From positions 1-41,448 of the forward strand of contig CAZUCB010000004.1 of NCBI GenBank assembly GCA_964618755.1: 41,448 nt of DNA. Direction: 5' to 3'. Positions 991 to 34,398 of the stretch are shown one piece after another. The first letter of the stretch is position 1, and each line of letters begins with the position of its first letter. The notes below the pieces were generated by a model. That model was not told the origin of the DNA. It did not search any database and saw nothing but the letters and a program-made list of their open reading frames with translations. A program made the translations under genes and the position numbers. The stretch is from an uncultured Bacteroides sp. Its GTDB lineage: Bacteria > Bacteroidota > Bacteroidia > Bacteroidales > JACABE01.

Positions 991-1022
991 AAAAAGCCCC
1001 GAATATTTCTACTCGAGGCTTT
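991..1022 (-). terminator. rho-independent terminator of hydrogenase operon 1
   Basis: The minus strand reads AAGCCTCGA-GTAGAAATAT-TCGGGGCTTTTT, a GC-rich stem with one mismatch followed by a T-run. It lies 24 nt downstream of the nuoE-like stop at 1046. Confidence 0.6.
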
Positions 1023-1045
1023 CATCGTTAATAAGCATTAAATAA

Positions 1046-1522
1046 TTATTTGTATTCTGCAATAATAGCTTTTACACCATCAGGCGAAACACGTCCGTAA
1101 ACCTTTTCGCCAATAAGCACAACGGGAGCCAATCCGCAAGCACCTACACAACGCAAACAGCTTAAAGAGAATTTACCATCTTTTGAGGTTTCGCCAACCG
1201 CAATTTTCAATTCGCGTTTAAACTCTTCCAGTACTTTTTCGGCACCTCTTACATAGCAAGCCGTACCGGTACATACCGAAATAGGAAATTCGCCCTTGGG
1301 TATCATGGTAAAGAAAGAGTAAAACGTAACTACTCCATACACATGAGCAGTAGAAACATTTAATTCCCTAGCAATTATTTCCTGTACCTCGGCAGGCAGA
1401 TAACCGTACATGGTTTGGGTTTTGTGCAACACATTAATCAGTTCGCCGCCTTCGTTGTTGAAGGATTTGCAAATATCCTTTATCTTGTTTATTTTATCTT
1501 CTGATAATTTAATATTAACCAT
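1046..1522 (-). CDS. hydC: NuoE/HydC-type [2Fe-2S] subunit of the NAD(P)H-linked [FeFe]-hydrogenase
   Basis: Thioredoxin-like 2Fe-2S pattern: VTFYSFF, CTGTAC (Cx4C) and CLRCVGACGLAP (Cx3C). The track start at 1558 is a TTG overlapping hydA, so I prefer the ATG at 1522 (MVNIKLSEDK), which gives 158 aa. Confidence 0.85.
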   Translation of the reverse strand: MVNIKLSEDKINKIKDICKSFNNEGGELINVLHKTQTMYGYLPAEVQEIIARELNVSTAHVYGVVTFYSFFTMIPKGEFPISVCTGTACYVRGAEKVLEEFKRELKIAVGETSKDGKFSLSCLRCVGACGLAPVVLIGEKVYGRVSPDGVKAIIAEYK

Positions 1523-1547
1523 AACATTTATTTTTTTAAGATTGTTA

Positions 1548-3320
1548 TTACTCTTCAATAAATACTTCGTTGCTTTTGTCGAAATAGTGCGTATGCAATA
1601 AATGATGCGATTTTTCGCCGCAAGGTTTGCCTAAGAATTCATCGTAAAGTTTGATAATATCAGGATTTTCGTGCGATTTACGAATAGGTTTACCGGCGTC
1701 TTCGCGGTAAATAGAAGCAGCACGTTTTTTCAAAATTTCACTATTACCAAAGTTTAATGGTTGACCACCGCCACCGATGCATCCACCAGGGCAAGCCATA
1801 ATTTCGATAGCATGGAATTTAGAAATCCCGGCTCTAACGTCGTTCAACAATTTACGGGCATTACCCAAACCATGAGCAATACCGATATTAATTGGTAAAC
1901 CGTCAAAATCAATAGTAGCCGAACGAATACCGTCCATACCTCTTAGTTCGTTGAATTCAACTTTGTCAAGTTTTTTTCCGGTATGAACTTCGTAAGCAGT
2001 ACGACAAGCAGCTTCGATAACACCACCTGTATTCCCGAAAATAACAGCAGCACCAGTTGATTCGCCCATCGGATGATCGAAATCTTCATCAGGTAAATTC
2101 ATGAAATCAATATTGGCTTGTTTGATAAAATGAGCCAATTCGCGGGTTGATAATGAAAAGTCAACATCAGGATTGCCATCTACTTTAAACTCGTCGCGTT
2201 GACATTCGTATTTCTTAGCCAAACAAGGCATAATAGAAACCACTACCATATCTTTGCGGTTTACACCGATTTTGTCGGCAAAATAAGTTTTAGCAATAGC
2301 ACCAAACATTTGTTGAGGTGATTTAGCTGTAGATGGAATGTCTAACATATCTGAAAAATTATGTTCAAAAAAGTTAACCCAACCCGGACAGCAACTTGTT
2401 AAAATAGGTAATTTAACGGTTTTGTCACCAGCTAAGTGTTTTCCTAAACGACCCAATAATTCAGTCCCTTCTTCCATAATGGTTAAATCGGCTGCAAAAT
2501 CGGTATCAAATACATATTTGAAACCCAAACGACGCAAAGCAGCTGCCATTTTGCCTGTAACAGAAGTACCGGCTTCCATGCCAAATTCTTCGCCCAAAGC
2601 AGCACGAACAGCAGGAGCGGTTTGTACAATTACGGTTTTGGTTTTGTCAGATAAAGCTCTTATAACATTGCTGGTATGATCTACTTCGGTTAATGCACCT
2701 GTAGGACATACCGAAACACATTGACCACAATACGTACAAGGCGATTTTTCCAGATTCATTTCAAATGCAGGAGCAACTACAGAAGTAAATCCACGATTTA
2801 CAGCCGATAAAGCACCTACCGTTTGAACGTCATTACACATCATTTCGCAACGACGGCACATGATACATTTATCCACATCGCGAATAATAGAAGGAGAAGT
2901 ATCCACACGATAAGTTGATTTTTCGCCTTGGTAAGGAATTTCGCGGATGCCAAATTTCTGAGCCATTGTTTGTAATTCGCAGTTGCCCGATTTTGCACAA
3001 ATCAAGCAGTCGAACGGATGGTCAGAAAGCATAAGTTCTACAACAGTACGTCTTGTATTTAACACACGAATATTGTGAGTATCTACAACCATACCATCAA
3101 AAGCTTCGGTAGCGCAGGCAGGAGCAAGGTTTTTGCGACCTTCAATTTCCACAACACAAACGCGGCATCCACCGGGTTTGTTTTCAATTTTCATATCGCC
3201 CAATTCAAAATAACAAAGCGTAGGAATATCGATACCTACTTTTCTTGCTGCTTTCAAAACGGTGGTGCCTTTTTCTACTTCAACGATTTTATTATCTATT
3301 GTTAATTTAATCATTTCCAT
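1548..3320 (-). CDS. hydA: [FeFe]-hydrogenase catalytic subunit (multi-FeS, clostridial/bifurcating type), paralog 1
   Basis: All three canonical H-cluster motifs are present: L1 TSCCPGW, L2 MPCLAKKYE, L3 EIMACPGGCIGGGGQP. The N-terminus has a 2Fe-2S region (CRVCVVEI), a His-ligated cluster region (HPFDCLICAKSGNCELQ) and 2x CxxCxxCxxxCP. The C-terminal tail reads RKSHENP...HTHY. Confidence 0.95.
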   Translation of the reverse strand: MEMIKLTIDNKIVEVEKGTTVLKAARKVGIDIPTLCYFELGDMKIENKPGGCRVCVVEIEGRKNLAPACATEAFDGMVVDTHNIRVLNTRRTVVELMLSDHPFDCLICAKSGNCELQTMAQKFGIREIPYQGEKSTYRVDTSPSIIRDVDKCIMCRRCEMMCNDVQTVGALSAVNRGFTSVVAPAFEMNLEKSPCTYCGQCVSVCPTGALTEVDHTSNVIRALSDKTKTVIVQTAPAVRAALGEEFGMEAGTSVTGKMAAALRRLGFKYVFDTDFAADLTIMEEGTELLGRLGKHLAGDKTVKLPILTSCCPGWVNFFEHNFSDMLDIPSTAKSPQQMFGAIAKTYFADKIGVNRKDMVVVSIMPCLAKKYECQRDEFKVDGNPDVDFSLSTRELAHFIKQANIDFMNLPDEDFDHPMGESTGAAVIFGNTGGVIEAACRTAYEVHTGKKLDKVEFNELRGMDGIRSATIDFDGLPINIGIAHGLGNARKLLNDVRAGISKFHAIEIMACPGGCIGGGGQPLNFGNSEILKKRAASIYREDAGKPIRKSHENPDIIKLYDEFLGKPCGEKSHHLLHTHYFDKSNEVFIEE

Positions 3321-3340: not shown

Positions 3341-5134
3341 TTATTTTATACTAATTGCGTTAAATTTACATTTTTCCATACAAGCACCGCATTTGATACA
3401 AATATCTTGGTTAATGTAATGAGCTAGTTTTCTTTCACCGGTAATGGCATTTACAGGGCAATTGCGTGCACATGCAGTACAACCAACGCATTGTTCAGCA
3501 TCAATAATATATTGCATCAATGCTTTACATTGTCCCGAACGACATTTTTTCTCGTTGATGTGTTCTAAATACTCATCCCAAAAGTTATCTAAGGTAGAAA
3601 GTACAGGGTTTGGAGAAGTTTGACCTAAACCACACAATGAAGCATCTTTGATAACCTGGCTTAAATTTTTCAATTTGTCCAAATCAGCCATTGTACCTTT
3701 ACCTTGTGTAATAGTTTCCAGAATCTCATACAGACGTTTGTTACCAATACGACAAGGTGTACATTTACCGCAAGATTCTTCAACAGTAAAATCTAAATAG
3801 AATTTAGCAACAGAAACCATACAATCGTCTTCGTCCATTACAATCATTCCACCTGAGCCCATCATCGAACCAGCTGCAATTAAATTATCATAATCGATAG
3901 GAGTGTCAAGATGACGTTCTGTTAAGCAACCACCTGAAGGACCTCCTGTTTGTACTGCTTTAAATTTTTTACCATCTTTAATGCCACCACCAATTTCGTA
4001 TATAATTTCACGCAAAGTGATGCCCATCGGTACTTCAATTAAACCAACATTGTTGATTTTTCCGGCCAAAGCAAATACTTTTGTACCTTTTGATTTTTCA
4101 GTTCCAATGCTCGAAAACCATTCAGCACCTTTATTGATAATAACAGGAACACTTGCAAAAGTTTCTACATTGTTTACATTGGTTGGTTTTCCTAGATAAC
4201 CCGAAACAGAAGGGAAAGGAGGTTTAAATGTAGGTTCACCACGCATACCTTCCATTGAGTGAATTAATGCAGTTTCTTCACCACAAACAAAAGCACCGGC
4301 ACCGTAACGCAATTCGATATCAAAATCGAATCCACTGCCTAAAATATCTTTACCTAACAAACCATATTCTCTGGCCTGATCAATAGCAATTTTCAAACGA
4401 GTAATAGCCAAAGGATATTCAGCACGAATATATACCAAACCTTTGGTTCCGCCTATTGAATAACCACAAATAGCCATTGCTTCAATTACTGAATGAGGGT
4501 CACCTTCTAAGATAGAACGATCCATAAAAGCACCTGGGTCACCTTCGTCGGCATTACAAACTACATATTTTTGGTCAGCTTGCGATTTGCTGGTAATTTC
4601 CCATTTCAAACCAGTAGGGAATCCACCACCGCCACGACCACGTAAGCCTGATTTTTTTATGATATCAATGGTTTGTTGAGCATCCATTTCGGTAAGAACT
4701 TTACCCAATGCTTCATAACCATCGCGAGCGATATATTCATCTATATTTTCAGGATCAATAAAACCACAGTTTCTTAAAGCTATTCGAATTTGTTTTTTAT
4801 AAAATCCCATATGTTTTGAATCACTTACGTGTTCTTTGTTTTCAGGATCTTTGTACAACAATCGGGTAACTTTTCTACCTTTGATGATATGTTCTTCAAT
4901 AATTTCTCTTGCATCTCCGGGCTTTACTTCTGTATAAAAAGTATTGTCAGGCATCACTTTAACGATAGGACCTTTTTCGCAAAAACCAAAACAACCAGTC
5001 ATAACAACTTGTATCTCGTGATCCAATCCTTTTTCTATAAGGATTTCTTTTAGGTTGTCACCTACAGTTTTACTCAATGATGCATGGCAACCTGTACCTC
5101 CACATACAAGAAGATGCATTTTAAATTTTGCCAT
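3341..5134 (-). CDS. hydB: NuoF/HydB-type flavoprotein subunit, long form with extra FeS domains
   Basis: NADH/FMN site GLRGRGGGGFPTGLKWE and N3 cluster ESCGKCTPCRIG. An N-terminal thioredoxin-like 2Fe-2S domain is present (CGGTGCHAS...CFGFCEKGP). The C-terminus has 2x[4Fe-4S] (CVGCTACARNCP, CIKCGACMEKC). A strong SD, AAGGAGGAA, sits 7 nt upstream. Confidence 0.95.
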   Translation of the reverse strand: MAKFKMHLLVCGGTGCHASLSKTVGDNLKEILIEKGLDHEIQVVMTGCFGFCEKGPIVKVMPDNTFYTEVKPGDAREIIEEHIIKGRKVTRLLYKDPENKEHVSDSKHMGFYKKQIRIALRNCGFIDPENIDEYIARDGYEALGKVLTEMDAQQTIDIIKKSGLRGRGGGGFPTGLKWEITSKSQADQKYVVCNADEGDPGAFMDRSILEGDPHSVIEAMAICGYSIGGTKGLVYIRAEYPLAITRLKIAIDQAREYGLLGKDILGSGFDFDIELRYGAGAFVCGEETALIHSMEGMRGEPTFKPPFPSVSGYLGKPTNVNNVETFASVPVIINKGAEWFSSIGTEKSKGTKVFALAGKINNVGLIEVPMGITLREIIYEIGGGIKDGKKFKAVQTGGPSGGCLTERHLDTPIDYDNLIAAGSMMGSGGMIVMDEDDCMVSVAKFYLDFTVEESCGKCTPCRIGNKRLYEILETITQGKGTMADLDKLKNLSQVIKDASLCGLGQTSPNPVLSTLDNFWDEYLEHINEKKCRSGQCKALMQYIIDAEQCVGCTACARNCPVNAITGERKLAHYINQDICIKCGACMEKCKFNAISIK

Positions 5135-5156: not shown

Positions 5157-5552
5157 TTATTTTTGAATACTTTCGTAATTTACAGGAATAATACCATCAA
5201 CCAACTCATTGTTTTTGATGTATTTTTCAATAATTTCGTTTGCTTTTTTCTCGTTCACATAGCCAAAAACAACTGGATCCTGATTGGGTAATGTTACTTC
5301 GATCGTAGGTTCAGCATAACAATAACCCATACAACCCGTTTGAGTAACAATAGCCTCGATGTTTCTTTTTTCAAGTTCATCAATAAAATATTCCATCACA
5401 GTTTTTGCTCCGGATGCAATACCACAAGTTGCCATAGCAACTCTAATCTGAACCAAACTCTCAGTATTATTGCCTTTTTCTCTAAGATTCAGTTTAGATT
5501 CAAGCCCTTCCTTCATCTTTCTGAGATCTGCCAAAGATTTTACTTTTGTCAT
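5157..5552 (-). CDS. small thioredoxin-like [2Fe-2S] ferredoxin subunit (HydD/HndB-like)
   Basis: 131 aa with ATCGIASGA and GCMGYCYAEP Cys pairs, and an AGGAGA SD 5 nt upstream. It occupies the position immediately before the NuoF-like gene, as in four-subunit hydrogenases. Confidence 0.8.
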   Translation of the reverse strand: MTKVKSLADLRKMKEGLESKLNLREKGNNTESLVQIRVAMATCGIASGAKTVMEYFIDELEKRNIEAIVTQTGCMGYCYAEPTIEVTLPNQDPVVFGYVNEKKANEIIEKYIKNNELVDGIIPVNYESIQK

Positions 5553-5576: not shown

Positions 5577-6125
5577 TTAGTTTGAATAATGTATTTCTGT
5601 TAAATTCTCTTTAATCATTTCTTTTAAATATCTGATTACTTGCGGTTGGTTAATACTCATGCCATCCATAGCTTCTTTTATTTCATCCGTATCAAAAATA
5701 TATTCACCTGTTTCAGTTGTATGGGTATATATAAAGTGTATGTTTTCGTTAGCTGCAACTGTTAGTACTATTACACCGGCAATATCACCTAACATTGGTC
5801 TGTCGAAGTTATTGTGCTGGAATATTGCTGTTAACACAGTTCCCTTGCCTAAGGTAGAATCAATTGTAAAACTTCCTCCGGCTCTTTCAGCGTTCTGCTT
5901 AAACAATGGAATTCCCAATCCAACCTTGCGTGTAGTACGTGAAGTACAATAAGAATCGGTTACATTTGCTAGCATTTCTTTTGTCATTCCTTTGCCATTG
6001 TCTTTGATACTTATACTGTATATATTGTCTGCCTTATTCTCAACAATCATTATTTCAATTAAATCAGCATTTGCTACTATTGAATTTTGAACGATGTCTA
6101 ATATGTGCAAAGATAATTCTTTCAT
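5577..6125 (-). CDS. stand-alone GHKL (HATPase_c) ATP-binding protein, no DHp/His domain
   Basis: N-box-like LHILDIVQNSIVANA, G1 DNGKGM, G2 GLGIPL, then GKGTVLTAIF, plus a C-terminal extension of about 80 aa. No H-box is present. Confidence 0.75.
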   Translation of the reverse strand: MKELSLHILDIVQNSIVANADLIEIMIVENKADNIYSISIKDNGKGMTKEMLANVTDSYCTSRTTRKVGLGIPLFKQNAERAGGSFTIDSTLGKGTVLTAIFQHNNFDRPMLGDIAGVIVLTVAANENIHFIYTHTTETGEYIFDTDEIKEAMDGMSINQPQVIRYLKEMIKENLTEIHYSN

Positions 6126-6152
6126 TGTTATTATAATAACAGTTTCGGCAAT

Positions 6153-6887
6153 TTAATTTAATACTTTCCTGTTTTCTTTACCAGCCAATGCTTTCCTGAT
6201 TTCATCAAAAGAAACTTCTTCCATTTCAAATTGAGATGTAATTTCCCCAATACTATTAATAAAGTGCGAATCAGAATTTTGTAATATCGTAAAAGCATTT
6301 AAGTAAGTGTATTGTTTCAAAAACTCCAACTTTGTAATATGCTTTGTTATTTCAAAAGCATCTGCTTTAATATCTGGAGGAATAAATCCCAACTGACTTA
6401 TCAAACTGAATTTTGGGCGATTTACATGAGCCGGAATAAACAAGCCATTCAATTCATGTACTTTATCTGCTAATTCATCAATAGATATATTCAGTGCCGA
6501 ACTCAGCAATATTTCTTCTTCAGCTATAATATTTTCTTCCTCATCTACTATTAATTGATAGCCAAATCGTTTTATATCATTTTTAATTTTTGGTAAATGA
6601 GTTTCAATATATTGTTGAAAATCAAGTAATCTTTCATTATTTTCAAAGAACGTAAGGCAGTGTAATTCCTCTTTCGTTGTTATTTCTGCTCCACAAAGTA
6701 CAAAAATTCCATTTTTTTTACCAATTTCTCTGGTAACTTTGCATTGTTTTGTACTGTTATGGTCGGTTAAACCGATGATGTCAAGTTTTCTTTCTTTTGC
6801 TTTATTTATAATATTTATTGGGCTCATTTCCAAATCAGCACAAGGCGATAAAACGCTATGAATATGCAAATCAGCCCTGTAAATCAT
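6153..6887 (-). CDS. PHP-domain metal-dependent phosphoesterase
   Basis: ADLHIHSVLSPCA near the N-terminus, LTDHNS, and later AHVNRP and SDSH motifs typical of PHP (polymerase/histidinol-phosphatase) folds. Its start overlaps the upstream stop (TAATG at 6885-6889). Confidence 0.8.
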   Translation of the reverse strand: MIYRADLHIHSVLSPCADLEMSPINIINKAKERKLDIIGLTDHNSTKQCKVTREIGKKNGIFVLCGAEITTKEELHCLTFFENNERLLDFQQYIETHLPKIKNDIKRFGYQLIVDEEENIIAEEEILLSSALNISIDELADKVHELNGLFIPAHVNRPKFSLISQLGFIPPDIKADAFEITKHITKLEFLKQYTYLNAFTILQNSDSHFINSIGEITSQFEMEEVSFDEIRKALAGKENRKVLN

Positions 6888-7222
6888 TACTTTTTCAATA
6901 AGTTAAAAAGTTCTCCCGAAATTTCAAAAGCCTGTTTATTAGTTCCCAATACAGGGATATTTTCTTCATTGCTTTGAGCTGCCATGTCTTCTTCAGGTTT
7001 AAAACCTTTAACTAAAATAATTGCTGCCAATTCCTTAAGAGATGCAATTGCCATAACATTTTTATGAGTTTGCAATGTTATCCATGTACTTCCTGCTTCG
7101 GCACTTCCCATTACATCACTTAGTAAATCAGACGAATATCCATTTGTTATTTCATTTGAAAGACCTTTTTCTCCTGAAAAAATCTTTAAATCCAATGCTT
7201 TTACAATTTCTTCAACTTTCAT
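6887..7222 (-). CDS. DRTGG-like small domain protein (copy 2)
   Basis: 111 aa with SSDLLSDVMGS and AAIILVKGFKPEED segments, resembling the small DRTGG proteins I remember next to hydrogenase genes. It is a paralog of the 9002-9346 product. This is a family call from memory, not a search. Confidence 0.6.
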   Translation of the reverse strand: MKVEEIVKALDLKIFSGEKGLSNEITNGYSSDLLSDVMGSAEAGSTWITLQTHKNVMAIASLKELAAIILVKGFKPEEDMAAQSNEENIPVLGTNKQAFEISGELFNLLKK

Positions 7223-7226
7223 TTTC

Positions 7227-8579
7227 TTATTTTGTATTAAATTTATCGCCCCAAATACGTTTCATTTTTGCGATAGCTTCATTCATTGTCATACTTCCTT
7301 TTTGTTCCATAATACGCTGAATAAAAATACAATCAGTAATATCAGCTCTGCTCATTACAATGTCTTCGGCCAATGTTTGGCAGGTAGAAGCACCACACAT
7401 TCCGCAATCAGTTTTTGGTAAATACTCCATAATTTCATGCATCTTGCCCATCTTTTTGATAGCTTCCGACATATCTTCATCCAATTTTAGCATCGAACGT
7501 GGCATAATCTTGGAAACGTTCATGTTTTCAATCAGATATTTCTTGTAATTATTCAATTCTTTTGAAATACAGGATTCTTTTTTTTGATTTTCGTCAGTAG
7601 ATTTGGCTCTGTTTTTCATTCTTTCAACTGTTAGAAAGCGATTTCCACTGGTTAGCACGCCACCTGCACAACTTTCGTCGCAAGCTCTGAGTTCCAGAAA
7701 ATCTATATCTGAAATTTCTTCACTTTCTATCTTTTCCAAAAATTCTATAACATTGTGTATTTCATCAATAGCCAAAGCTCTGCCATCTGAAGTATCTCTT
7801 TCACCATTCGTTAAACTCCATAATATACCTTTTGAATCTAATTCATCTTTTTGAGGAACAGCACAGTAATCTTTTCCGTTTTGCTTGATACTTTTATATA
7901 TTTTATTGTAAATGAAATCAAGGTTAATGACCCCTGTAATAGTAGATTTTTCTTCACCAACTGGACTTTTTACTGCGGCTATCTTTGCTGCACAAGGTGT
8001 TATGTAGAATATACCAATTTCATTTTCCGTATAACCTTGTTCAGTAAGAAGTTTTTTATAGTATAAGGCTGCAATATCCAAAGGTGACTTTAATAAAATT
8101 AAATTATCAACCAAAGCAGGAAATTTAACTTGTATTAAACGTATAACTGCAGGGCAAAATGTTGAAATCAATGGTTTAATTGAAGGATTTTTTTTCTTAA
8201 AATCTTCACGGGCTTCCAACAAAAGATCAACAGTATGTTCTATTTCAAAAACATGAGTAAATCCAATTGCAATTAATTCGTTATAAATTTGTTGAGTTGA
8301 AATATTTTCCGGAAACTGTCCAATTAAAACACCTGGTACTAAAGCAATACGATAATTGTAATTAAAAATCTGCATAAAGTCATCGTGATCAACATAAATT
8401 GCATTTACCGGACAAACCCTGAAACACTCACCACAGTCAACACAACGGTTTTCAAACAAATGGGCCTTTCCATTTTTCACTCTAATAGCCTCTGTAGGGC
8501 ATACTTTAATACAGTGAGTACATCCTATGCAATTAGGCTCACTAATTTTTAAAGCATGGTGGAAATATTGTTTGTCCAT
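7227..8579 (-). CDS. H-cluster-domain-like FeS protein (putative sensory [FeFe]-hydrogenase homolog, no PAS domain)
   Basis: The N-terminus has 2x[4Fe-4S] (CIGCTHCIKVCP, CVDCGECFRVCP). The L motifs are degenerate: L1 STFCPAV, L2 ITPCAAK, L3 ELRACDESCAGG. The C-terminal motif CGMCGASTC-X16-C equals Cx2Cx4Cx16C (aa 392-417). Confidence 0.8.
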   Translation of the reverse strand: MDKQYFHHALKISEPNCIGCTHCIKVCPTEAIRVKNGKAHLFENRCVDCGECFRVCPVNAIYVDHDDFMQIFNYNYRIALVPGVLIGQFPENISTQQIYNELIAIGFTHVFEIEHTVDLLLEAREDFKKKNPSIKPLISTFCPAVIRLIQVKFPALVDNLILLKSPLDIAALYYKKLLTEQGYTENEIGIFYITPCAAKIAAVKSPVGEEKSTITGVINLDFIYNKIYKSIKQNGKDYCAVPQKDELDSKGILWSLTNGERDTSDGRALAIDEIHNVIEFLEKIESEEISDIDFLELRACDESCAGGVLTSGNRFLTVERMKNRAKSTDENQKKESCISKELNNYKKYLIENMNVSKIMPRSMLKLDEDMSEAIKKMGKMHEIMEYLPKTDCGMCGASTCQTLAEDIVMSRADITDCIFIQRIMEQKGSMTMNEAIAKMKRIWGDKFNTK

Positions 8580-8586
8580 TTTATTT

Positions 8587-9000
8587 TTAAGCTAATTTTA
8601 CCATTATTGTAACTTCTGTTCCAATACCAACTTCGCTTTTAATTTCTAATTTATCAGCATTTTTTTTTATATTTGGTAATCCCATTCCTGCACCAAATCC
8701 CATTTCTCTAACCTGATGGCTAGCAGTAGAGTAACCTTCTTTCATTGCCTGTGAAATATCTGGAATTCCTGGTCCAGTATCTTTTAATCGTAAAATTATT
8801 TTATCAGTATCAATATCAGCAAAAATTGTACCTCCAAAGGAGTGGGCAACAATATTAACTTCAGCTTCATACAAAGCGACAACGATTCGTTTAATTCTAA
8901 CAGAATCAACATTTAATTGCTTCAAAATTTTTTTTATCTGGCTTGAAGCAGTTCCTGCATTTGAGAAATCTCCACTAACGATTTTATATTCGAAATGCAT
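8587..9000 (-). CDS. RsbW/SpoIIAB-like GHKL Ser/Thr kinase-type protein (anti-sigma regulatory factor family)
   Basis: 137 aa with N box EAEVNIVAHS, G1 DTGPGIPD, G2 GFGAGMGLPN, then GTEVTI. It has no DHp domain. Confidence 0.75.
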   Translation of the reverse strand: MHFEYKIVSGDFSNAGTASSQIKKILKQLNVDSVRIKRIVVALYEAEVNIVAHSFGGTIFADIDTDKIILRLKDTGPGIPDISQAMKEGYSTASHQVREMGFGAGMGLPNIKKNADKLEIKSEVGIGTEVTIMVKLA

Positions 9001-9001
9001 T

Positions 9002-9346
9002 TTAATAAATTGGTTTTATACCATTATTGTAAAGAATTCCAGAAGTCTTAAACATTGAGTAATCACATTCTATTAATAAAATTCCATTTTCCTCAGCTAA
9101 ATCTTTCATTTCTGCAGTTACTTTCTTTCCTCTTACATAAATTATATTAATTATATCTGACATTTCTGCAGTTCTAATTGATTGAATATTTGATAAACCT
9201 GTAAGTAAAAGAACATTTTGAGCTTTAACCGTAAGAACATCGCTCATTAAATCCGATGAAAACGCAAACTCTACTTCATTTTCAAGCATTTTTTCGTTTC
9301 CGTAAGTTTTTGCGTTTAGTAGTGTTTTAATATCTTTAATTCTCAT
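9002..9346 (-). CDS. DRTGG-like small domain protein (copy 1)
   Basis: SSDLMSDVL, LLLTGLSN and IIYVRGKK segments parallel the 6887-7222 product. The track start at 9388 is a TTG that overlaps the predicted -7 box, so I prefer the ATG at 9346 (MRIKDIK). Confidence 0.6.
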   Translation of the reverse strand: MRIKDIKTLLNAKTYGNEKMLENEVEFAFSSDLMSDVLTVKAQNVLLLTGLSNIQSIRTAEMSDIINIIYVRGKKVTAEMKDLAEENGILLIECDYSMFKTSGILYNNGIKPIY

Positions 9347-9385: not shown

Positions 9386-9393
9386 CAAAATTA
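9386..9393 (-). promoter_or_regulatory. Bacteroidota-type -7 promoter box TAATTTTG for hydrogenase operon 1
   Basis: The plus strand reads CAAAATTA, which is minus-strand TAATTTTG and matches the TAnnTTTG consensus. It lies 40 nt upstream of the ATG at 9346. Confidence 0.4.
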
Positions 9394-9421
9394 TAATGAT
9401 TTTACATAAAAAACAAGTTTA

Positions 9422-9455
9422 TTGTGAAAAACATAACAATGTGAAAAAAATAACA
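9422..9455. promoter_or_regulatory. tandem Rex/CRP-like operator repeats
   Basis: TTGTGAA-AAAC-ATAACAA (9422-9439) is followed directly by TGTGAAAAAAATAACA (9440-9455). The two 16-nt cores, TGTGAAAAA[C/A]ATAACA, are 15/16 identical. Confidence 0.4.
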
Positions 9456-9492: not shown

Positions 9493-9527
9493 AAAAAAAG
9501 TAAGGCTGTTGGAAAAATCCAACAGCC
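9493..9527 (-). terminator. rho-independent terminator of hydrogenase operon 2
   Basis: Perfect 9-bp stem GGCTGTTGG / CCAACAGCC with loop AAAAAT. A 7-nt T-run follows on the minus strand (plus-strand A-run 9493-9499). It lies 34 nt after the hydA2 stop. Confidence 0.7.
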
Positions 9528-9560
9528 CTTTTCATAATAGATAGTTTAAAAAAAGACTTG

Positions 9561-11351
9561 TTAGTACCTTTTTCTTGGTTTATAATGGGTATGTAACAAA
9601 TCATGTGATTTATGTCCTAAAGGTTCACCAAGAAAATCCTTGTAAATCTGAGCAACTTCTGGGTTTTCATGTGATTTTCTTAGAGGTAAGCCTTCATCTT
9701 CAGAATAAATTGCAGTAGCACGTTTTTGACGAATTTCAGGACTTGTTGGAATTGGTTGTCCTCCTCCGCCCAAGCATCCACCAGGGCATCCCATAATTTC
9801 AATGAAATGGTAGTTAGCTTTGCCTGATCTGATTGCTTTCATTAATTCATTTGCATTGTGTAAGCCATGAGCAATAGCAACACTTAGTTCAGCTCCTTCT
9901 AGAAATCCCCATTCTGGCTTAACATCTTTAATCATTATTTTGGCTTCTTTTATGCCTTCAAAACCTCTTACGGGCATAATTTTAAGATTGGTAAATGGAA
10001 CCTCACGTCCAGTAACTATTTCATAAGCAGTACGCAATGCGGCTTCCATAACACCTCCAGTAGCTCCGAAAATTACAGCAGCTCCAGTAGAATTACCCAT
10101 AATGCTGTCGTATTTTTCATCATCTAATTTCATGAAATCAATACCGGCTTGTTTAACCATCATTGCTAATTCACGAGTAGTTAAAACATAATCAACATCT
10201 TGATAACCACTGTCTCGCATTTCTGGTCTTACACATTCGAATTTTTTAGCAGTACAAGGCATAATAGAAACAGAGACCATGTTTTTTGCATCTATACCTT
10301 TTTTCTTTGCATAATATGTTTTCGCCAGTGCACCAAACATTTGTTGTGGTGATTTACAAGTTGATAAATTTTCTAATAAATCTGGAAACATGTGTTCTTG
10401 AAATTTTATCCAACCTGGAGAACAAGAAGTCATCATTGGTAAAGCTACTTTTTCTCCATCAACTAATGCTCTTTTTAAGCGGGTTAAAAGCTCTGTTCCT
10501 TCTTCCATAATTGTTAAATCTGCAGTAAAATCGGTGTCTAATACAGAATCGAAACCAATATGTCTTAACGCAGCTACCATTTTACCTGTAACTCTTTCAC
10601 CTGGTTCATATCCTAAGTCTTCACCCAAACCTATTCTAACAGCTGGTGCAGTTTGTACAACAACATGTTTTGAAGGGTCGTTAATTGCATTCCAAACTTC
10701 ATCTAAATAAGTTCTTTCTGTTAATGATCCAGTTGGGCAACGATTGATACATTGACCACAATTTGTACAAACTACTTCATCCAACGGTTTATTCATAAAA
10801 GTAGAAATCCTTTGATGGTCGCCTTTTTTTACAACTGCTAATGCACTAACTGCTTGTAATTCCTCACAGGTTCTAACACAACGTTGACAACGAATACATT
10901 TGCTGTCATCTTTTGAAATGGAAGGAGAAGAAATGTCAATAATTTTATCTTTCGCTTTTACCAAGTCAATGAAAATATGATCACCAATACGATACTCAGA
11001 AGCAAGTTCTTGTAATTCGCAATTACCATTTTTAAAACATTTGGTGCAATCAGCATTGTGTTCCGATAATAGTAATTCAATGACATGTTTACGTGCTGTT
11101 CTAACTTTTTCACTATTGGTAAAAACTTCCATACCTTCTGAAACTGGAGTGGCACAAGAAGCAGCTAATAATCTTGCACCTTTAACTTCAACTACACATA
11201 CGCGACAGTTTCCTGCTACACTTAAATCAGGGTGATTACAAAGTGTTGGTATATTGAAATTAAGCTTTTTAGCTGCATCAAGAATGGTGGTTCCTTCTTT
11301 AACGGATACCACTATATTATTGATTTTTAGATTTACTAAATATTCGCTCAT
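9561..11351 (-). CDS. hydA: [FeFe]-hydrogenase catalytic subunit, paralog 2, with atypical L1 motif
   Basis: Same domain order as paralog 1. L2 MPCTAKKFE and L3 EIMGCPGGCLGGGGQP are canonical. L1 reads TSCSPGW instead of TSCCPGW. Confidence 0.95.
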   Translation of the reverse strand: MSEYLVNLKINNIVVSVKEGTTILDAAKKLNFNIPTLCNHPDLSVAGNCRVCVVEVKGARLLAASCATPVSEGMEVFTNSEKVRTARKHVIELLLSEHNADCTKCFKNGNCELQELASEYRIGDHIFIDLVKAKDKIIDISSPSISKDDSKCIRCQRCVRTCEELQAVSALAVVKKGDHQRISTFMNKPLDEVVCTNCGQCINRCPTGSLTERTYLDEVWNAINDPSKHVVVQTAPAVRIGLGEDLGYEPGERVTGKMVAALRHIGFDSVLDTDFTADLTIMEEGTELLTRLKRALVDGEKVALPMMTSCSPGWIKFQEHMFPDLLENLSTCKSPQQMFGALAKTYYAKKKGIDAKNMVSVSIMPCTAKKFECVRPEMRDSGYQDVDYVLTTRELAMMVKQAGIDFMKLDDEKYDSIMGNSTGAAVIFGATGGVMEAALRTAYEIVTGREVPFTNLKIMPVRGFEGIKEAKIMIKDVKPEWGFLEGAELSVAIAHGLHNANELMKAIRSGKANYHFIEIMGCPGGCLGGGGQPIPTSPEIRQKRATAIYSEDEGLPLRKSHENPEVAQIYKDFLGEPLGHKSHDLLHTHYKPRKRY

Positions 11352-11383
11352 TTTATTATTTTTTTAATGTTATCAAATAAATA

Positions 11384-12553: not shown

Positions 12554-12590
12554 TTTTCTTTATTGTTTGAATTTTAAAACTAATTCTTAA

Positions 12591-13061
12591 TTATTTAGAA
12601 GCTTTTGCATAGCTTTCAATAACTTCTAATGCCTTATCTGTAGTAAGTTCTGGGAATACTACATCATTTACCAGCATTACAGGACCTTTATGACACCAGC
12701 CTAAGCAATTTGCTGTAAGTAATGTAAACTTTTTGTCGTGAGTTGTTTCTCCGACTTTAATTTTTAAGGTATTTTCCATTGCTTCAATAATTTCATCTTT
12801 ACCTTTCATGTGGCATGAAATTGTTTTGCAAATTCTAATAATATTCTTGCCTCGAGGTTCTGTATCAAGAAAAGTGTAAAAAGAAGCTGTTCCAAATACT
12901 TCAGCTGCTGATAGGTCTAATTCTCTTGCTACTGTAATCATAGCTTCTTCGGAAAGAAATCTTTCTTCTTTTACAATACCTTGTAAAACAGGCATCAAAC
13001 TGTTTCTTGTTTTGCCATGTTTTTCAACTAAGTTCTTTACTAATGTTTCAATATCGGACAT
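12591..13061 (-). CDS. NuoE-like [2Fe-2S] subunit, paralog 2
   Basis: SFYTFL, CKTISC (Cx4C) and CLGWCHKGP (Cx3C). The second in-frame ATG at 13061 (MSDIETL) has GGAGGA 5 nt upstream. That SD is formed by the codons of the track's earlier start at 13073. Confidence 0.85.
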   Translation of the reverse strand: MSDIETLVKNLVEKHGKTRNSLMPVLQGIVKEERFLSEEAMITVARELDLSAAEVFGTASFYTFLDTEPRGKNIIRICKTISCHMKGKDEIIEAMENTLKIKVGETTHDKKFTLLTANCLGWCHKGPVMLVNDVVFPELTTDKALEVIESYAKASK

Positions 13062-13130
13062 GTTATCCTCCAAATTTTTGTTAATATGATTGATTAATTC
13101 TACTGTTATTTTTATAACAATTTAAAAGTT

Positions 13131-13138
13131 CAAAATTA
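13131..13138 (-). promoter_or_regulatory. -7 promoter box TAATTTTG for hydrogenase operon 2
   Basis: The plus strand reads CAAAATTA, which is minus-strand TAATTTTG. A TTTG (-33-like; plus-strand CAAA 13157-13160) lies 18 nt further upstream. Confidence 0.4.
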
Positions 13139-13149
13139 ATTCTTTTTTG

Positions 13150-13167
13150 TTGTTAACAAAATAACAA
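13150..13167. promoter_or_regulatory. Rex-like operator TTGTTAA-CAAA-ATAACAA
   Basis: It has one mismatch to the clostridial-type Rex consensus TTGTTAAnnnnTTAACAA. It covers the -33 region of the operon 2 promoter. Confidence 0.45.
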
Positions 13168-34391: not shown

Positions 34392-34398
34392 GATTTTA

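What the first reader, a model, noticed from the sequence alone, without database searches (positions are those of the whole stretch)
5577..9346. Uncharacterised six-gene sensor/kinase/phosphoesterase cassette in front of a multimeric [FeFe]-hydrogenase
Seen in sequence:
- Ten minus-strand genes run from 9346 down to 1046 with gaps of only 1-27 nt. One junction is a TAATG stop/start overlap at 6885-6889.
- I find a terminator only after the last gene (991-1022) and a promoter-like box only before the first (9386-9393).
- The first six genes encode a DRTGG-like protein, a 137-aa GHKL ATPase, a 450-aa H-cluster-like FeS protein, a second DRTGG-like protein, a PHP phosphoesterase and a second GHKL ATPase (182 aa).
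- Neither ATPase has a DHp/His phosphoacceptor domain.
- The cassette has no receiver, STAS, sigma-factor or DNA-binding domain.

Established knowledge: small GHKL proteins of this kind act as Ser/Thr kinases in RsbW/SpoIIAB partner-switching. From memory, similar DRTGG/GHKL/PHP genes flank hydABC in Thermotogae and Thermoanaerobacterales, and no function has been demonstrated for them.

Inference: the input (H2 or redox, via the FeS protein) is guessable, but the output is not. The duplicated DRTGG+GHKL pairs plus a PHP phosphatase look like a kinase/phosphatase switch with DRTGG proteins as substrates or partners. It may act post-translationally on the co-encoded enzyme.
Basis: partly seen in the sequence, partly recalled or inferred. 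Interest (0 to 1): 0.75.

Follow-up and report, generated by a model that had tools for sequence, protein, structure and literature searches.

The report
Hydrogen-sensor cassette beside bifurcating hydrogenase
Six small genes in front of a multi-subunit iron hydrogenase encode a probable hydrogen sensor and its likely signalling partners; this gene set is widespread and has been noted before, but nobody knows how it works.

Summary
Ten minus-strand genes (9346 to 1046) form one predicted operon. It has one Bacteroidetes-type promoter, tandem Rex-like operator boxes and one strong terminator. All six domain calls are confirmed. The 450-aa FeS protein has the architecture of a group D (M2e) putative sensory [FeFe]-hydrogenase (HydS, as in Thermoanaerobacter mathranii TamHydS). 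Papers from 2012-2020 already linked such genes to kinases and bifurcating hydrogenases. A 2026 paper still calls the signalling partners unknown.

New here:
- The gene order is conserved in 80 Bacteroidales species. The core (DRTGG, SpoIIAB-like GHKL, HydS, DRTGG, PHP) recurs in Firmicutes and Syntrophorhabdaceae.
- The cassette splits into two modules: DRTGG-a/GHKL/HydS and DRTGG-b/PHP/GHKL-long.
- Natural fusions (DRTGG-a–HydS, GHKL–HydS, HydS–DRTGG-b) point to direct partners of HydS.
- The second GHKL looks MutL/TopoVI-B-like and, outside Bacteroidales, sits next to HydD.
- The PHP protein's solved relatives act on nucleic acids or nucleotides, not proteins.

Best reading: an ATP-driven, H2-responsive protein switch acts on the co-encoded enzyme, while Rex controls transcription. 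The chemistry is unproven. This is a new member of a known, uncharacterised kind, of moderate interest.

The parts
9423..9455 (-). Two tandem Rex-like operator boxes (TGTKA-N6-TMACA; 9423-9438 and 9440-9455) just upstream of the promoter
   Evidence: 5 hits in the window against 0.45 expected, all next to hyd genes; 53 of 77 orthologous loci have a box upstream of g1, and 135 of 150 boxes in 1.36 Mb lie upstream of a cassette or hyd gene.
9386..9417 (-). Bacteroidetes-type promoter: -33 CTTG, 20-nt spacer, -7 TAATTTTG
   Evidence: It is conserved in orthologous upstream regions. The only other full match on this strand near the hyd genes is at 13160-13131.
9002..9346 (-). g1, DRTGG-a (114 aa): small DRTGG-fold adaptor, predicted partner of the N-terminal side of HydS and of g2
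   Evidence: paralogue of g4, E 3e-14; D32, S35 and T49 invariant; N-terminal DRTGG-a-HydS fusions P0205 and P0230.
8587..9000 (-). g2, GHKL-s (137 aa): SpoIIAB/RsbW-type ATP-binding protein (HATPase_c_2), putative Ser/Thr kinase or ATP-dependent binding switch
   Evidence: N, G1 and G2 boxes invariant; GHKL-HydS fusion P0161; CBS-GHKL fusion in Koleobacter.
7227..8579 (-). g3, HydS: group D (M2e)-type putative sensory [FeFe]-hydrogenase. It has two N-terminal [4Fe-4S] sites, an H-domain and a C-terminal four-Cys FeS domain, and no PAS domain
   Evidence: Invariant Cys 17/20/23/27/46/49/52/56, 142/196/300/304 and 392/395/400/417. The motif reads STFCP (F141 before C142) where group A has TSCCP with the proton-relay Cys; I read this from the sequences and aligned them by eye. 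Literature.
6887..7222 (-). g4, DRTGG-b (111 aa): DRTGG-fold adaptor, predicted partner of the C-terminal side of HydS and of the PHP protein
   Evidence: DRTGG 25.9 bits; Hpr_kinase_N; AF2 pLDDT 98; TM 0.85 to 2ioj; C-terminal HydS-DRTGG-b fusions; 1-nt stop/start overlap with g5.
6153..6887 (-). g5, PHP phosphoesterase (244 aa) with a complete metal-ligand set; EndoQ-like PHP domain without a DNA-binding module
   Evidence: Invariant across four phyla: D42, H43, E68, H76, H154, D206 and H208; D6, H8 and H10 are nearly invariant.
6126..6141 (-). Single palindromic Rex-like box (TGTTATTATAATAACA) filling the g5/g6 gap and abutting the g6 ATG
   Evidence: Conserved only in close relatives: 3 of 63 loci before g6 and 9 of 55 before g7.
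5577..6125 (-). g6, GHKL-l (182 aa): mini GHL-type ATPase, a Bergerat fold plus a small alpha/beta domain; the counterpart of A. woodii 'HydE'
   Evidence: pLDDT 90.9; full-length matches to MutL/PMS2 and TopoVI-B, while histidine-kinase CA domains match only about 105 columns.
5157..5552 (-). g7, HydD (131 aa): degenerate paralogue of the HydB N-terminal [2Fe-2S] domain, with only three Cys
   Evidence: Adjacent to GHKL-l in Firmicutes and Syntrophorhabdaceae loci.
3341..5134 (-). HydB (597 aa), NuoF-like flavoprotein subunit
1548..3320 (-). HydA (590 aa), catalytic [FeFe]-hydrogenase subunit, NCBIfam 'NADH-dependent, group A6'
   Evidence: 901 bits, cutoff 765.
1046..1558 (-). HydC (NuoE-like [2Fe-2S] subunit); the start codon is uncertain (TTG at 1558 or an internal ATG)
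992..1023 (-). Intrinsic terminator that ends the ten-gene unit
   Evidence: 14-bp stem followed by a T run.
9502..9529 (-). Intrinsic terminator of the upstream HydC'B'A' operon; it marks the 5' boundary of the unit
   Evidence: 12-bp stem, 6 GC pairs.

Best explanation
The cassette is the signalling apparatus of a group D (M2e)-type sensory [FeFe]-hydrogenase. It most likely sets the activity of the co-transcribed NADH/ferredoxin-dependent HydABC(D) hydrogenase at the protein level, in response to H2.

Proposed steps:
1. [Shown by sequence and comparison] All ten genes are transcribed from one promoter guarded by tandem Rex-like operators. Expression is therefore probably set by the NADH/NAD+ ratio, and the cassette needs no DNA-binding output of its own.
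2. [Inferred from the TamHydS literature and conserved ligands] HydS binds an H-cluster but lacks the proton-relay cysteine. It therefore reports H2 rather than turning it over.
3. [Inferred from strict synteny and natural fusions] HydS forms a complex with DRTGG-a on its N-terminal side, DRTGG-b on its C-terminal side, and the SpoIIAB-like GHKL-s.
4. [Inference only] The H2 state of HydS changes what GHKL-s does with ATP. Most likely it phosphorylates a DRTGG protein on the invariant Ser35, which caps a helix beside invariant Asp32 and Thr49. Alternatively it switches binding partners.
5. [Inference only] The PHP enzyme, delivered by DRTGG-b, reverses that state.
6. [Inference from gene adjacency] The signal reaches the enzyme through GHKL-l, a MutL-like ATP clamp, and HydD, a cluster-poor mimic of the HydB N-terminal domain.
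For: - Architecture and invariant cysteines of g3.
- TamHydS is sensor-like, and its partners are explicitly unknown.
- The order g1-g10 is conserved in most of 80 Bacteroidales species. Module A (g1-g2-g3) is never split. Module B (g4-g5-g6) moves as a block.
- g1-g2-g3-g4 are in the same order in Koleobacter, Acetivibrio, Natranaerovirga, Syntrophorhabdaceae and two further loci.
- Rosetta-stone fusions: DRTGG-a-HydS (P0205, P0230), GHKL-HydS (P0161) and HydS-DRTGG-b (P0136, P0148, P0212, P0221, P0225, P0234). The fusion order matches the gene order.
- ATP-binding boxes are intact in both GHKLs, and the PHP metal ligands are intact.
- D32, S35 and T49 are invariant in both DRTGG paralogues across four phyla. 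They sit at strand-end and helix-cap positions in a pLDDT-98 model.
- g2 belongs to the RsbW/SpoIIAB Pfam family, and its gene follows a small partner gene, as spoIIAB follows spoIIAA (gene order from my own knowledge).
- No transcription factor lies next to the cassette in any of 86 loci except rex in Koleobacter.
- Rex-like boxes are specific to the g1 and HydC' promoters.
- GHKL-l and HydD are adjacent in three phyla.
- In A. woodii, 'HydE' is described as not part of the active enzyme but possibly signalling.
Against: - No phosphorylation, binding or H2 response has been measured for any of these proteins.
- In some Bacteroidales, module A stands alone, several kilobases or more from any hyd gene. 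In Natranaerovirga the cassette precedes rnf, not hyd. The target is therefore not necessarily HydABC.
- DRTGG domains are known only as dimerising or regulatory parts of nucleotide-regulated enzymes, never as phospho-acceptors. The fold search finds no STAS protein.
- The PHP protein's relatives are nucleases and nucleotide phosphoesterases.
- GHKL-l looks more like a clamp ATPase than a kinase.
- The C-terminal cluster of TamHydS does not respond to H2, so the route of the signal inside HydS is open.
- The fusion proteins come from metagenome gene calls. Some could be frameshift artefacts, although nine independent 50%-identity clusters show them.
Confidence: 0.45

Rival explanations
1. Nucleotide-signal integrator without protein phosphorylation. 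The DRTGG modules (and CBS modules in other phyla) bind an adenine nucleotide or dinucleotide. The PHP enzyme hydrolyses that small molecule, or a nucleotidyl-protein bond. Both GHKLs act as ATP-dependent clamps or binders. H2 and energy or redox charge are combined to set hydrogenase activity.
For: - All solved relatives of g5 act on nucleic acids or nucleotides: EndoQ, RNase AM, pAp phosphatase-like proteins and PolC PHP.
- In CBS-pyrophosphatases, only the DRTGG-containing type responds to diadenosine polyphosphates.
- GHKL-s is fused to CBS domains in Koleobacter, and a CBS protein precedes GHKL-l in Syntrophorhabdaceae.
- GHKL-l resembles MutL/TopoVI-B clamps.
- D32, S35 and T49 sit where alpha/beta folds usually bind phosphate groups (inference).
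Against: - g2 belongs to the SpoIIAB/RsbW family, whose characterised members are protein Ser kinases (from my own knowledge).
- In CBS-PPases the nucleotides bind the CBS domains, not DRTGG.
- The Bacteroidales cassette has no CBS domain.
- No nucleotide cyclase or synthetase is encoded nearby.
Confidence: 0.2
2. Transcriptional output through a factor encoded elsewhere. GHKL-s works as an anti-sigma or anti-regulator that holds a sigma factor or transcription factor and releases it when H2 is sensed, with DRTGG-a as its antagonist.
For: - g2's best matches are SpoIIAB and RsbW.
- The literature's default assumption is a regulatory, two-component-like role.
- Module A occurs alone, far from hyd genes.
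- A group C HydS is fused to a sigma-54 activator next door in Koleobacter, so H2-to-transcription coupling does exist in this enzyme family.
Against: - None of 86 loci has a sigma-factor or DNA-binding gene conserved next to the cassette.
- Bacteroidota lack the sigma-B/sigma-F group targeted by SpoIIAB/RsbW (from my own knowledge).
- The operon already carries a conserved Rex-type operator that accounts for transcriptional control.
- GHKL-s is fused to HydS, not to a regulator.
Confidence: 0.2
3. Assembly or maturation helpers. The GHKL ATPases act as chaperones, HydS as a scaffold, and the PHP and DRTGG proteins as accessory factors for building or repairing HydABC.
For: - The A. woodii authors left 'assembly or signalling' open for HydE.
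- GHKL ATPases include chaperones such as Hsp90, and Grp94 appears among the structural matches.
- The genes are co-transcribed with the structural genes.
Against: - HydS keeps every H-cluster ligand and is active as a hydrogenase in vitro.
- Module A occurs without hyd genes nearby and next to rnf.
- According to the literature, A. woodii makes active enzyme with only HydE and HydD; I did not check the A. woodii genome for the other cassette genes.
Confidence: 0.07
4. HydS is a second catalytic subunit that shares HydB/HydC, and the small genes are unrelated passengers; or the PHP and GHKL genes form an anti-phage defence island.
For: - g3 has a complete H-cluster site.
- PHP and GHKL domains occur in defence systems. 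There are weak NCBIfam hits to TrlF and Ppl.
Against: - The PADLOC scan found nothing significant.
- Synteny is conserved across 80 species and several phyla, and fusions to HydS exist. This rules out passengers.
- Low turnover is reported for the group D enzyme.
Confidence: 0.03

Closest known systems
Group D (M2e) putative sensory [FeFe]-hydrogenase gene clusters upstream of bifurcating HydABC (TamHydS of Thermoanaerobacter mathranii; Cthe_0335, TTE0887, Csac_1857, Athe_1292; Halanaerobium Halsa_1862-1871)
   Same: - The HydS architecture is the same: two [4Fe-4S] sites, an H-domain and a C-terminal four-Cys cluster, with no PAS domain and no proton-relay Cys.
- The position upstream of trimeric hyd genes is the same.
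- The accompanying 'anti-sigma factor/Ser kinase', PHP and 'histidine kinase' genes are the same.
   Different: - This copy is from Bacteroidales, not Firmicutes.
- HydC comes last rather than between PHP and GHKL-l.
- The literature names only 'a kinase' (and, for TamHydS, an AraC regulator) as neighbours. It has not recognised the two DRTGG proteins, the two-module structure or the fusions.
Group C (M2f) sensory HydS systems (Thermotoga maritima HydS; the Ruminococcus albus HydS and Thermoanaerobacterium hfs clusters, both from my own knowledge)
   Same: A HydS-type hydrogenase with the same C-terminal FeS domain, located beside a bifurcating hydrogenase and proposed to sense H2.
   Different: Group C carries a PAS domain. 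It is linked to PP2C phosphatases and kinases, or is fused to a sigma-54 activator as in L081. The cassette here has no PAS domain and no PP2C, and uses DRTGG and PHP proteins instead.
SpoIIAA/SpoIIAB/SpoIIE and RsbV/RsbW/RsbU partner switching
   Same: - A small GHKL protein of the HATPase_c_2 family without a DHp domain.
- It is encoded directly after a ~110-aa alpha/beta partner protein.
- A separate metal-dependent hydrolase could reverse the modification.
   Different: - The partner has a DRTGG fold, not STAS.
- The hydrolase is PHP, not PP2C.
- The third gene is an FeS sensor, not a sigma factor.
- g2 scores below the SpoIIAB and RsbW equivalog cutoffs.
A. woodii HydE/HydD (hydC-hydE-hydD-hydB-hydA)
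   Same: - g6 is a ~180-aa histidine-kinase-like ATP-binding protein.
- g7 is a small protein with no, or poor, cofactor sites.
- The two are adjacent to each other and to hydB.
   Different: - In this window they follow the sensor cassette in the same operon.
- My model suggests GHKL-l is a GHL-type clamp with an extra domain. I did not find this stated in the papers I read.
CBS-DRTGG regulatory insert of family II pyrophosphatases; HPr kinase N-terminal domain; AF1212
   Same: The DRTGG fold of g4 matches with TM 0.85 to 2ioj and about 0.7 to 3l2b/3l31 and 1ko7/1knx.
   Different: Here DRTGG is a stand-alone protein with its own invariant SDLxSDV motif. It is associated with a hydrogenase-type sensor, not a pyrophosphatase or kinase.
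Endonuclease Q / TIGR00375 PHP domain
   Same: The whole PHP domain aligns at profile E 4e-18, and the metal ligands are conserved.
   Different: g5 lacks EndoQ's zinc-finger and C-terminal DNA-binding domains. Nothing suggests a DNA-repair role.
Rex (NADH/NAD+-sensing repressor) regulon of fermentative hydrogenases
   Same: - The operator has the TTGTKA-N6-TMACAA shape and lies in front of hyd operons.
- The rex gene is adjacent in Koleobacter.
   Different: - No rex gene lies in this window.
- Binding has not been tested.
- The Bacteroidales sites come as tandem pairs.

Membership tests
Group D (M2e) putative sensory [FeFe]-hydrogenase (HydS) | H-domain with the four H-cluster cysteines | tested here: met
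   Fe_hyd_lg_C at 85 bits. C142, C196, C300 and C304 are invariant or nearly invariant in 52 diverse homologues.
Group D (M2e) putative sensory [FeFe]-hydrogenase (HydS) | N-terminal two-[4Fe-4S] domain plus a C-terminal four-Cys cluster domain, and no PAS domain | tested here: met
   Fer4 pair at residues 11-62 and PF04060 at 387-419, with no PAS hit. Eight plus four Cys are invariant.
Group D (M2e) putative sensory [FeFe]-hydrogenase (HydS) | Loss of the group A proton-relay cysteine (CpI C299) and of the methionines that flank the diiron site | tested here: met
   The sequence shows ISTFCP where group A has TSCCP, ITPC where it has MPC, and ELRAC where it has ExMxC. I aligned these by eye with HydA of the same window. 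The criterion comes from PMC8163306.
Group D (M2e) putative sensory [FeFe]-hydrogenase (HydS) | Phylogenetic placement with TamHydS, apart from groups A-C | not tested
The assignment rests on architecture and motifs.
Group D (M2e) putative sensory [FeFe]-hydrogenase (HydS) | H2-dependent sensing behaviour (low turnover, CO tolerance, structural change on H2) | not testable with these tools
   Biochemistry is known only for TamHydS.
SpoIIAB/RsbW-type partner-switching kinase (for g2) | Bergerat ATP-binding fold with N, G1 and G2 boxes, no DHp domain, about 140 aa | tested here: met
   HATPase_c_2 at 40 bits against a cutoff of 27.4. E45/N49, D74xGxG78 and G101-G107 are invariant.
SpoIIAB/RsbW-type partner-switching kinase (for g2) | Scores as an equivalog of SpoIIAB or RsbW | tested here: not met
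   TIGR01925 at 59 bits against a cutoff of 135. RsbW models at 17-22 bits against 145-155.
SpoIIAB/RsbW-type partner-switching kinase (for g2) | STAS-domain antagonist as substrate | tested here: not met
   No STAS domain in the cassette. The g4 model matches DRTGG structures only, with no STAS protein in the top 50.
SpoIIAB/RsbW-type partner-switching kinase (for g2) | Ser/Thr kinase activity towards the partner | not testable with these tools
   Needs an in vitro [gamma-32P]ATP or Phos-tag assay.
DRTGG domain (for g1 and g4) | Pfam PF07085 match above the gathering score | tested here: met
   g4 scores 25.9 bits against 25.2. g1 has no direct hit but is homologous to g4. Orthologues in other phyla carry DRTGG hits.
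DRTGG domain (for g1 and g4) | DRTGG three-dimensional fold | tested here: met
   AF2 pLDDT 98. Foldseek: 2ioj TM 0.85, 3l2b/3l31 about 0.70, HprK N-domain about 0.7.
PHP phosphoesterase (for g5) | PHP domain with the His/Asp/Glu metal-ligand set | tested here: met
   PF02811 at 34.8 bits against 26.4. D42, H43, E68, H76, H154, D206 and H208 are invariant, and D6, H8 and H10 nearly invariant, across four phyla.
PHP-type protein phosphatase (CpsB/YwqE-like) | Detectable homology to the protein-tyrosine phosphatase branch of PHP | tested here: not met
   The profile search against PDB returns EndoQ, nucleotide phosphoesterases, RNase AM, PolC and YcdX, but no CpsB or YwqE.
Endonuclease Q (TIGR00375) | PHP domain plus zinc-finger and C-terminal DNA-binding domains, about 400 aa | tested here: not met
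   Only the PHP part aligns (query 6-245 to EndoQ 5-233). g5 ends at residue 244. TIGR00375 scores 29.9 bits against a cutoff of 326.
Two-component histidine kinase (for g2 and g6) | HisKA/DHp phospho-acceptor domain and a cognate receiver | tested here: not met
   No HisKA and no Response_reg in the ten genes. The nearest canonical pair is 25 kb away, at 33684-35712.
GHL clamp ATPases (MutL / TopoVI-B / MORC) (for g6) | Bergerat fold followed by a second (transducer-like) domain | tested here: inconclusive
   HATPase_c_3 hit. Full-length Foldseek matches to MutL, PMS2 and TopoVI-B cover 164-190 columns, but TM is only 0.46-0.57 and rmsd about 5 A or more. The extra domain is much smaller than a true transducer.
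Rex regulon | Palindromic TTGTKAA-N4-TTMACAA operator in the promoter region | tested here: met
Rex regulon | A Rex protein in the genome that binds the site in an NADH-sensitive way | not testable with these tools
   No rex gene in the 41-kb window. The rest of the genome was not available.
Anti-phage defence system | Match to a PADLOC model | tested here: not met
   Only chance-level hits, E of about 2e-3 or weaker and 14 bits.

The most novel reading that the evidence does not exclude
The cassette is a previously unrecognised type of partner-switching module. Stand-alone DRTGG proteins take the role of STAS antagonists and are phosphorylated on the invariant Ser35 by a SpoIIAB-like GHKL. 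A PHP enzyme takes the role of the PP2C phosphatase. A hydrogenase-derived FeS protein supplies the H2 input. The output is direct, ATP-dependent gating of an electron-bifurcating hydrogenase (or of Rnf) through a MutL-like mini-clamp and the pseudo-ferredoxin HydD. That would be post-translational control of a bioenergetic enzyme by its own product gas.
Probability: 0.2. Interest if true: 0.8.

Novelty: new member of a known kind. Interest (0 to 1): 0.5.

Why it matters
Electron-bifurcating hydrogenases set the H2 output of fermenters in guts, sediments and digesters. How cells sense H2 with [FeFe]-type sensors is an acknowledged open question. The 2026 TamHydS paper ends by asking for the interaction partners.

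The comparative data here name concrete candidates: two DRTGG adaptors, a SpoIIAB-like GHKL and a PHP enzyme. Nature has fused the two DRTGG adaptors and the GHKL to HydS in some lineages. The data also separate a probable Rex-based transcriptional layer from a probable protein-level layer. That turns a vague statement ('a kinase is nearby') into pull-down, phosphorylation and activity experiments that can be done with proteins already being expressed in several laboratories.

If the switch really gates the enzyme, it would be a handle for engineering H2 or ethanol yields.

Tried and rejected
- A cross-phylum locus search with a 52-sequence alignment failed because no stretch was conserved enough. 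The narrower alignment returned only Bacteroidales. Other phyla were reached through the look-up of encoding contigs instead.
It was solved by using the natural HydS-DRTGG fusion proteins as alignment rows.
- The DRTGG profile search against PDB gave top hits to designed 'Pizza' repeat proteins. These are repeat-summing artefacts and were discarded.
- STAS-likeness of the DRTGG proteins was rejected by the fold search.
- The anti-phage defence reading was rejected.
- Riboswitch or sRNA in the leader and junctions: nothing reached the Rfam threshold. The only hit is the terminator hairpin at 9503-9557, scoring as 'P26' below the gathering score.
- The sigma-70 consensus scan is uninformative in this AT-rich Bacteroidales DNA: 55 hits against 53 expected. 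It was replaced by the Bacteroidetes -33/-7 pattern.
- Literature searches for DRTGG with hydrogenase, PHP with a bifurcating hydrogenase, and partner-switching with a sensory hydrogenase found no mechanistic paper.
- A rex gene was looked for among the window's ORFs and not found.

Full report
**1. What is in the sequence**

All are on the minus strand. They are followed by four hydrogenase genes: g7 HydD 5157-5552, HydB 3341-5134, HydA 1548-3320 and HydC 1046-1558. Junctions range from a 1-nt overlap to a 27-nt gap. One is the TAATG stop/start overlap between g4 and g5.

A 12-bp-stem terminator at 9529-9502 closes a separate upstream operon. That operon (HydC' 12591-13073, a short HydB' 11384-12553 and HydA' 9561-11351) encodes a second trimeric hydrogenase. 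A 14-bp-stem terminator at 1023-992 closes the ten-gene unit.

The generic sigma-70 scan is uninformative here, with 55 hits against 53 expected. The organism is a Bacteroidales bacterium: its nearest relative among 185,000 species genomes is a Bacteroidales MAG with 91% HydS identity. I therefore searched for the Bacteroidetes promoter pattern instead (-33 YTTG, 18-21 nt, TAnnTTTG). On the minus strand near the hyd genes it occurs only at 9417-9386 and 13160-13131. The TTG at 9388 therefore cannot be the g1 start. Orthologues begin at the ATG at 9346.

**2. Domain assignments**

- Pfam and NCBIfam confirm g2 as HATPase_c/HATPase_c_2. Its best named relatives are SpoIIAB and RsbW, below their cutoffs.
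- g3 has two Fer4 domains, Fe_hyd_lg_C and the PF04060 FeS domain.
- g4 is DRTGG, just above the cutoff, and also hits Hpr_kinase_N.
- g5 is PHP plus PHP_C.
- g6 is HATPase_c/HATPase_c_3.
- g1 has no Pfam hit of its own but is a clear paralogue of g4 (29% identity, E 3e-14).
- No HisKA, receiver, STAS, sigma-factor or helix-turn-helix domain is present.
- An AlphaFold model of g4 (pLDDT 98) superposes on the DRTGG protein AF1212 (TM 0.85). It also superposes on the DRTGG domain of Clostridium perfringens CBS-pyrophosphatase and the N-domain of HPr kinase (TM about 0.7). No STAS protein appears among the 50 best matches.

**3. The FeS protein is a known type**

The architecture of g3 is that of the M2e or group D [FeFe]-hydrogenases: two N-terminal [4Fe-4S] sites, an H-domain and a C-terminal four-Cys cluster, with no PAS domain. 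All sixteen cluster cysteines are conserved in 52 homologues of 25-69% identity. The group A proton-relay cysteine is replaced: STFCP stands where group A has TSCCP.

The T. mathranii member, TamHydS, has been characterised as a putative H2 sensor (PMC8163306). Carere et al. [quoted passage not shown] Verbeke et al. 2013 noted the same arrangement in all Thermoanaerobacter strains (PMC3608648). The Halanaerobium hydrogeniformans operon Halsa_1862-1871 was listed gene by gene in 2014, including the PHP protein, the 'anti-sigma factor Ser/Thr kinase' and an unidentified ORF (PMC4237134). [quoted passage not shown] HydD is described there as lacking cofactor sites (PMC3315566).

The mechanism is still open. 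In April 2026 the TamHydS group showed that the C-terminal cluster does not respond to H2. They wrote that identifying the interaction partners is critical (PMC13104023). My searches found no paper that defines the mechanism.

**4. Comparative genomics**

Eighty Bacteroidales loci encoding a HydS relative (49-91% identity) were fetched. They were annotated by BLAST against the window's proteins.

- The order g1 to g10 is kept in the large majority.
- The cassette resolves into two modules. Module A (g1-g2-g3) is never split. It sometimes stands alone among unrelated housekeeping genes.
- Module B (g4-g5-g6) moves as a block. In L042, L046, L055, L070 and L077 it lies in front of module A; where the contig reaches them (L042, L070), the hyd genes are divergent. 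In other loci module B is missing.
- Six loci from other lineages were read through the look-up of encoding contigs: Koleobacter, Acetivibrio saccincola, Natranaerovirga pectinivora, a Syntrophorhabdaceae MAG and two unnamed long contigs. All have g1-g2-g3-g4 in the same order (32-55% identity). Five have the PHP gene and five have GHKL-l.
- In Koleobacter and one unnamed contig (L085) the order continues PHP-HydC-GHKL-l-HydD-HydB. In Syntrophorhabdaceae a CBS protein, GHKL-l, HydD, NuoE and NuoF lie next to a formate dehydrogenase. In Natranaerovirga the cassette lacks PHP and precedes rnfCDGEAB.
- GHKL-l therefore sits at the border between the sensor genes and the enzyme genes. In three phyla it lies next to HydD.

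**5. Fusions**

Among 50%-identity cluster representatives of the HydS family, several are 530-610 aa long. Pfam and alignment show three kinds of fusion:
- P0205 and P0230 are DRTGG-HydS fusions whose DRTGG part is of the g1 type (LLTGL..IRTAE).
- P0161 is an HATPase_c_2-HydS fusion.
- P0136, P0148, P0212, P0221, P0225 and P0234 are HydS-DRTGG fusions whose DRTGG part is of the g4 type (W.T.QTH.N).

The fusion order reproduces the gene order. This is the strongest available evidence that g1, g2 and g4 are physical partners of HydS. In Koleobacter, g2 is instead fused to CBS domains.

**6. Conserved residues**

- Both GHKLs keep the N, G1 and G2 boxes, so both should bind ATP.
- The PHP protein keeps D42, H43, E68, H76, H154, D206 and H208 invariant, and D6, H8 and H10 nearly invariant, across four phyla. 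It should be an active metallo-phosphoesterase.
- Both DRTGG paralogues share the motif SDL[LM]S[DE]V. D32, S35 and T49 are invariant in 56 sequences from four phyla. In the model, D32 follows strand 28-30, S35 caps helix 34-40 and T49 ends strand 46-49. T49 is the T of the family signature. These positions are typical of a phosphate-binding or phospho-acceptor site. That last point is inference.

**7.

- The g6 model (pLDDT 90.9) has a Bergerat fold (residues 1-103) plus a small alpha/beta domain (115-177). Over its full length it matches MutL/PMS2 and TopoVI-B N-terminal fragments (164-190 columns, TM 0.46-0.57). Histidine-kinase CA domains cover only about 105 columns. With its HATPase_c_3 hit, this suggests a clamp-type ATPase rather than a second SpoIIAB-like kinase. 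The TM scores are modest, so this is not settled.
- A profile of g5 orthologues hits Endonuclease Q over the whole PHP domain (E 4e-18). It then hits nucleotide phosphoesterases, RNase AM, PolC PHP and YcdX, and no CpsB/YwqE-type protein phosphatase. A protein-phosphatase role is possible but is not the homology-favoured one.
- HydD is a degenerate copy of the HydB N-terminal [2Fe-2S] domain (30% identity). It lacks one of the four Cys, and the remaining three are replaced in 6 to 9 of 56 orthologues.

**8. Transcriptional layer**

A palindrome, TGTKA-N6-TMACA, occurs five times in the window against 0.45 expected:
- twice in tandem at 9423-9455, directly upstream of the g1 promoter;
- twice upstream of the HydC' operon (13104-13166);
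- once in the g5/g6 gap (6126-6141).

In the 80 Bacteroidales loci, 135 of 150 occurrences lie within 220 nt upstream of a cassette or hyd gene. That holds for 53 of 77 g1 promoters and 19 of 26 HydC' promoters. The same box precedes the cassette in the Koleobacter, Acetivibrio and one unnamed locus. In Koleobacter a rex gene sits immediately upstream.

From my own knowledge, the motif matches the published Rex operator. The operon is thus probably under NADH/NAD+ control. This gives a plausible reason why the cassette carries no DNA-binding output. No rex gene is in the window, so this remains a prediction.

**9. Mechanism**

I commit to the following at 0.45 overall. HydS, DRTGG-a, DRTGG-b and GHKL-s form an H2-sensing complex. 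The H2 state of HydS changes an ATP-dependent step of GHKL-s, most likely phosphorylation of a DRTGG protein on Ser35. The DRTGG-b-associated PHP enzyme reverses that step. The state is passed to the co-encoded enzyme through GHKL-l and HydD.

What is shown and what is inferred:
- Shown: the parts, their conservation, their modular linkage, the fusions, the intact active sites and the operator.
- Inferred: complex formation, the chemistry, the direction of control and the target.

Rivals:
- a nucleotide-ligand version without protein phosphorylation (0.2);
- a transcriptional output through an unlinked factor (0.2);
- an assembly role (0.07);
- trivial or defence readings (0.03). PADLOC finds nothing and Rfam finds nothing.

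**10. Verdict**

The object is a new, Bacteroidales member of a gene-cluster type that has been recognised for over a decade but never explained. It is not new as a kind.

Its value is that the comparative evidence assembled here makes the field's stated open question directly testable. That evidence is the two modules, the Rosetta-stone fusions, the invariant DRTGG motif, the EndoQ-like PHP, the MutL-like GHKL-l paired with HydD, and the Rex layer. Interest: 0.5.

Noticed in passing
window 9423-9455, 13104-13166, 6126-6141: Rex-like palindromes (TGTKA-N6-TMACA): 5 in the window against 0.45 expected, and all lie next to hyd genes. Tandem pairs sit in front of both hydrogenase operons. The motif is conserved in 53 of 77 orthologous g1 promoters and in Firmicutes loci. 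No rex gene is in the window.
   Followed up: yes
window 9561-13073 (minus strand): A second trimeric [FeFe]-hydrogenase operon lies directly upstream: HydC' 160 aa, a short 389-aa HydB' lacking the N- and C-terminal ferredoxin domains, and HydA' 596 aa. It has its own promoter, Rex-like boxes and terminator, but no sensor cassette, GHKL or HydD. It is present in roughly a third of the related loci. Its cofactor specificity, and why only one of the two enzymes carries the cassette, are unexplained.
   Followed up: partly
window 5157-5552: HydD is a degenerate paralogue of the HydB N-terminal [2Fe-2S] domain. The first Cys motif is shortened (CG----IAS against CGGTGCHAS). The three remaining Cys are replaced by Ser, Asp or Asn in 6 to 9 of 56 orthologues, so it is probably cluster-free in some lineages.
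   Followed up: partly
L081 17010-19380 (Koleobacter methoxysyntrophicus CP059066): Directly after hydA lies a protein of at least 869 aa that joins a HydS-type H-domain, the FeS domain, PAS domains and a sigma-54 activator AAA+ domain. This would be a one-protein H2-sensor/transcription-factor fusion of the group C type. I did not check whether it has been described.
   Followed up: no
L084 8083-16477 (Natranaerovirga pectinivora): Here the cassette (DRTGG, GHKL, HydS, DRTGG, GHKL-l, without PHP) is followed by rnfCDGEAB instead of hyd genes. This suggests the sensor can be coupled to other ferredoxin/NADH enzymes.
   Followed up: no
L081 6436-8984: In Koleobacter the SpoIIAB-like GHKL is fused to CBS domains (283 aa). 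An IS element (DDE_Tnp_1) has been inserted between the DRTGG-a/CBS genes and this gene.
   Followed up: no
P0265 (562 aa; HydS-family cluster representative): Its C-terminal extension is not DRTGG. It is a Cys-rich segment with CxxC pairs, possibly a zinc ribbon.
   Followed up: no
window 1522-1558: The HydC start is ambiguous. The listed TTG at 1558 overlaps the end of hydA by 11 nt. An in-frame ATG 12 codons downstream would leave a gap of about 25 nt.
   Followed up: no
window 33684-35712 (minus strand): A canonical two-component pair (HisKA+HATPase_c kinase and an OmpR-type response regulator) lies about 25 kb from the cassette. Nothing links it to the hydrogenase genes.
   Followed up: no
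window 20138-22141: A lone Proton_antipo_M (NuoL/Mrp-type) membrane protein gene. A Sir2-family deacetylase gene follows at 22262-22948. Neither was examined further.
   Followed up: no
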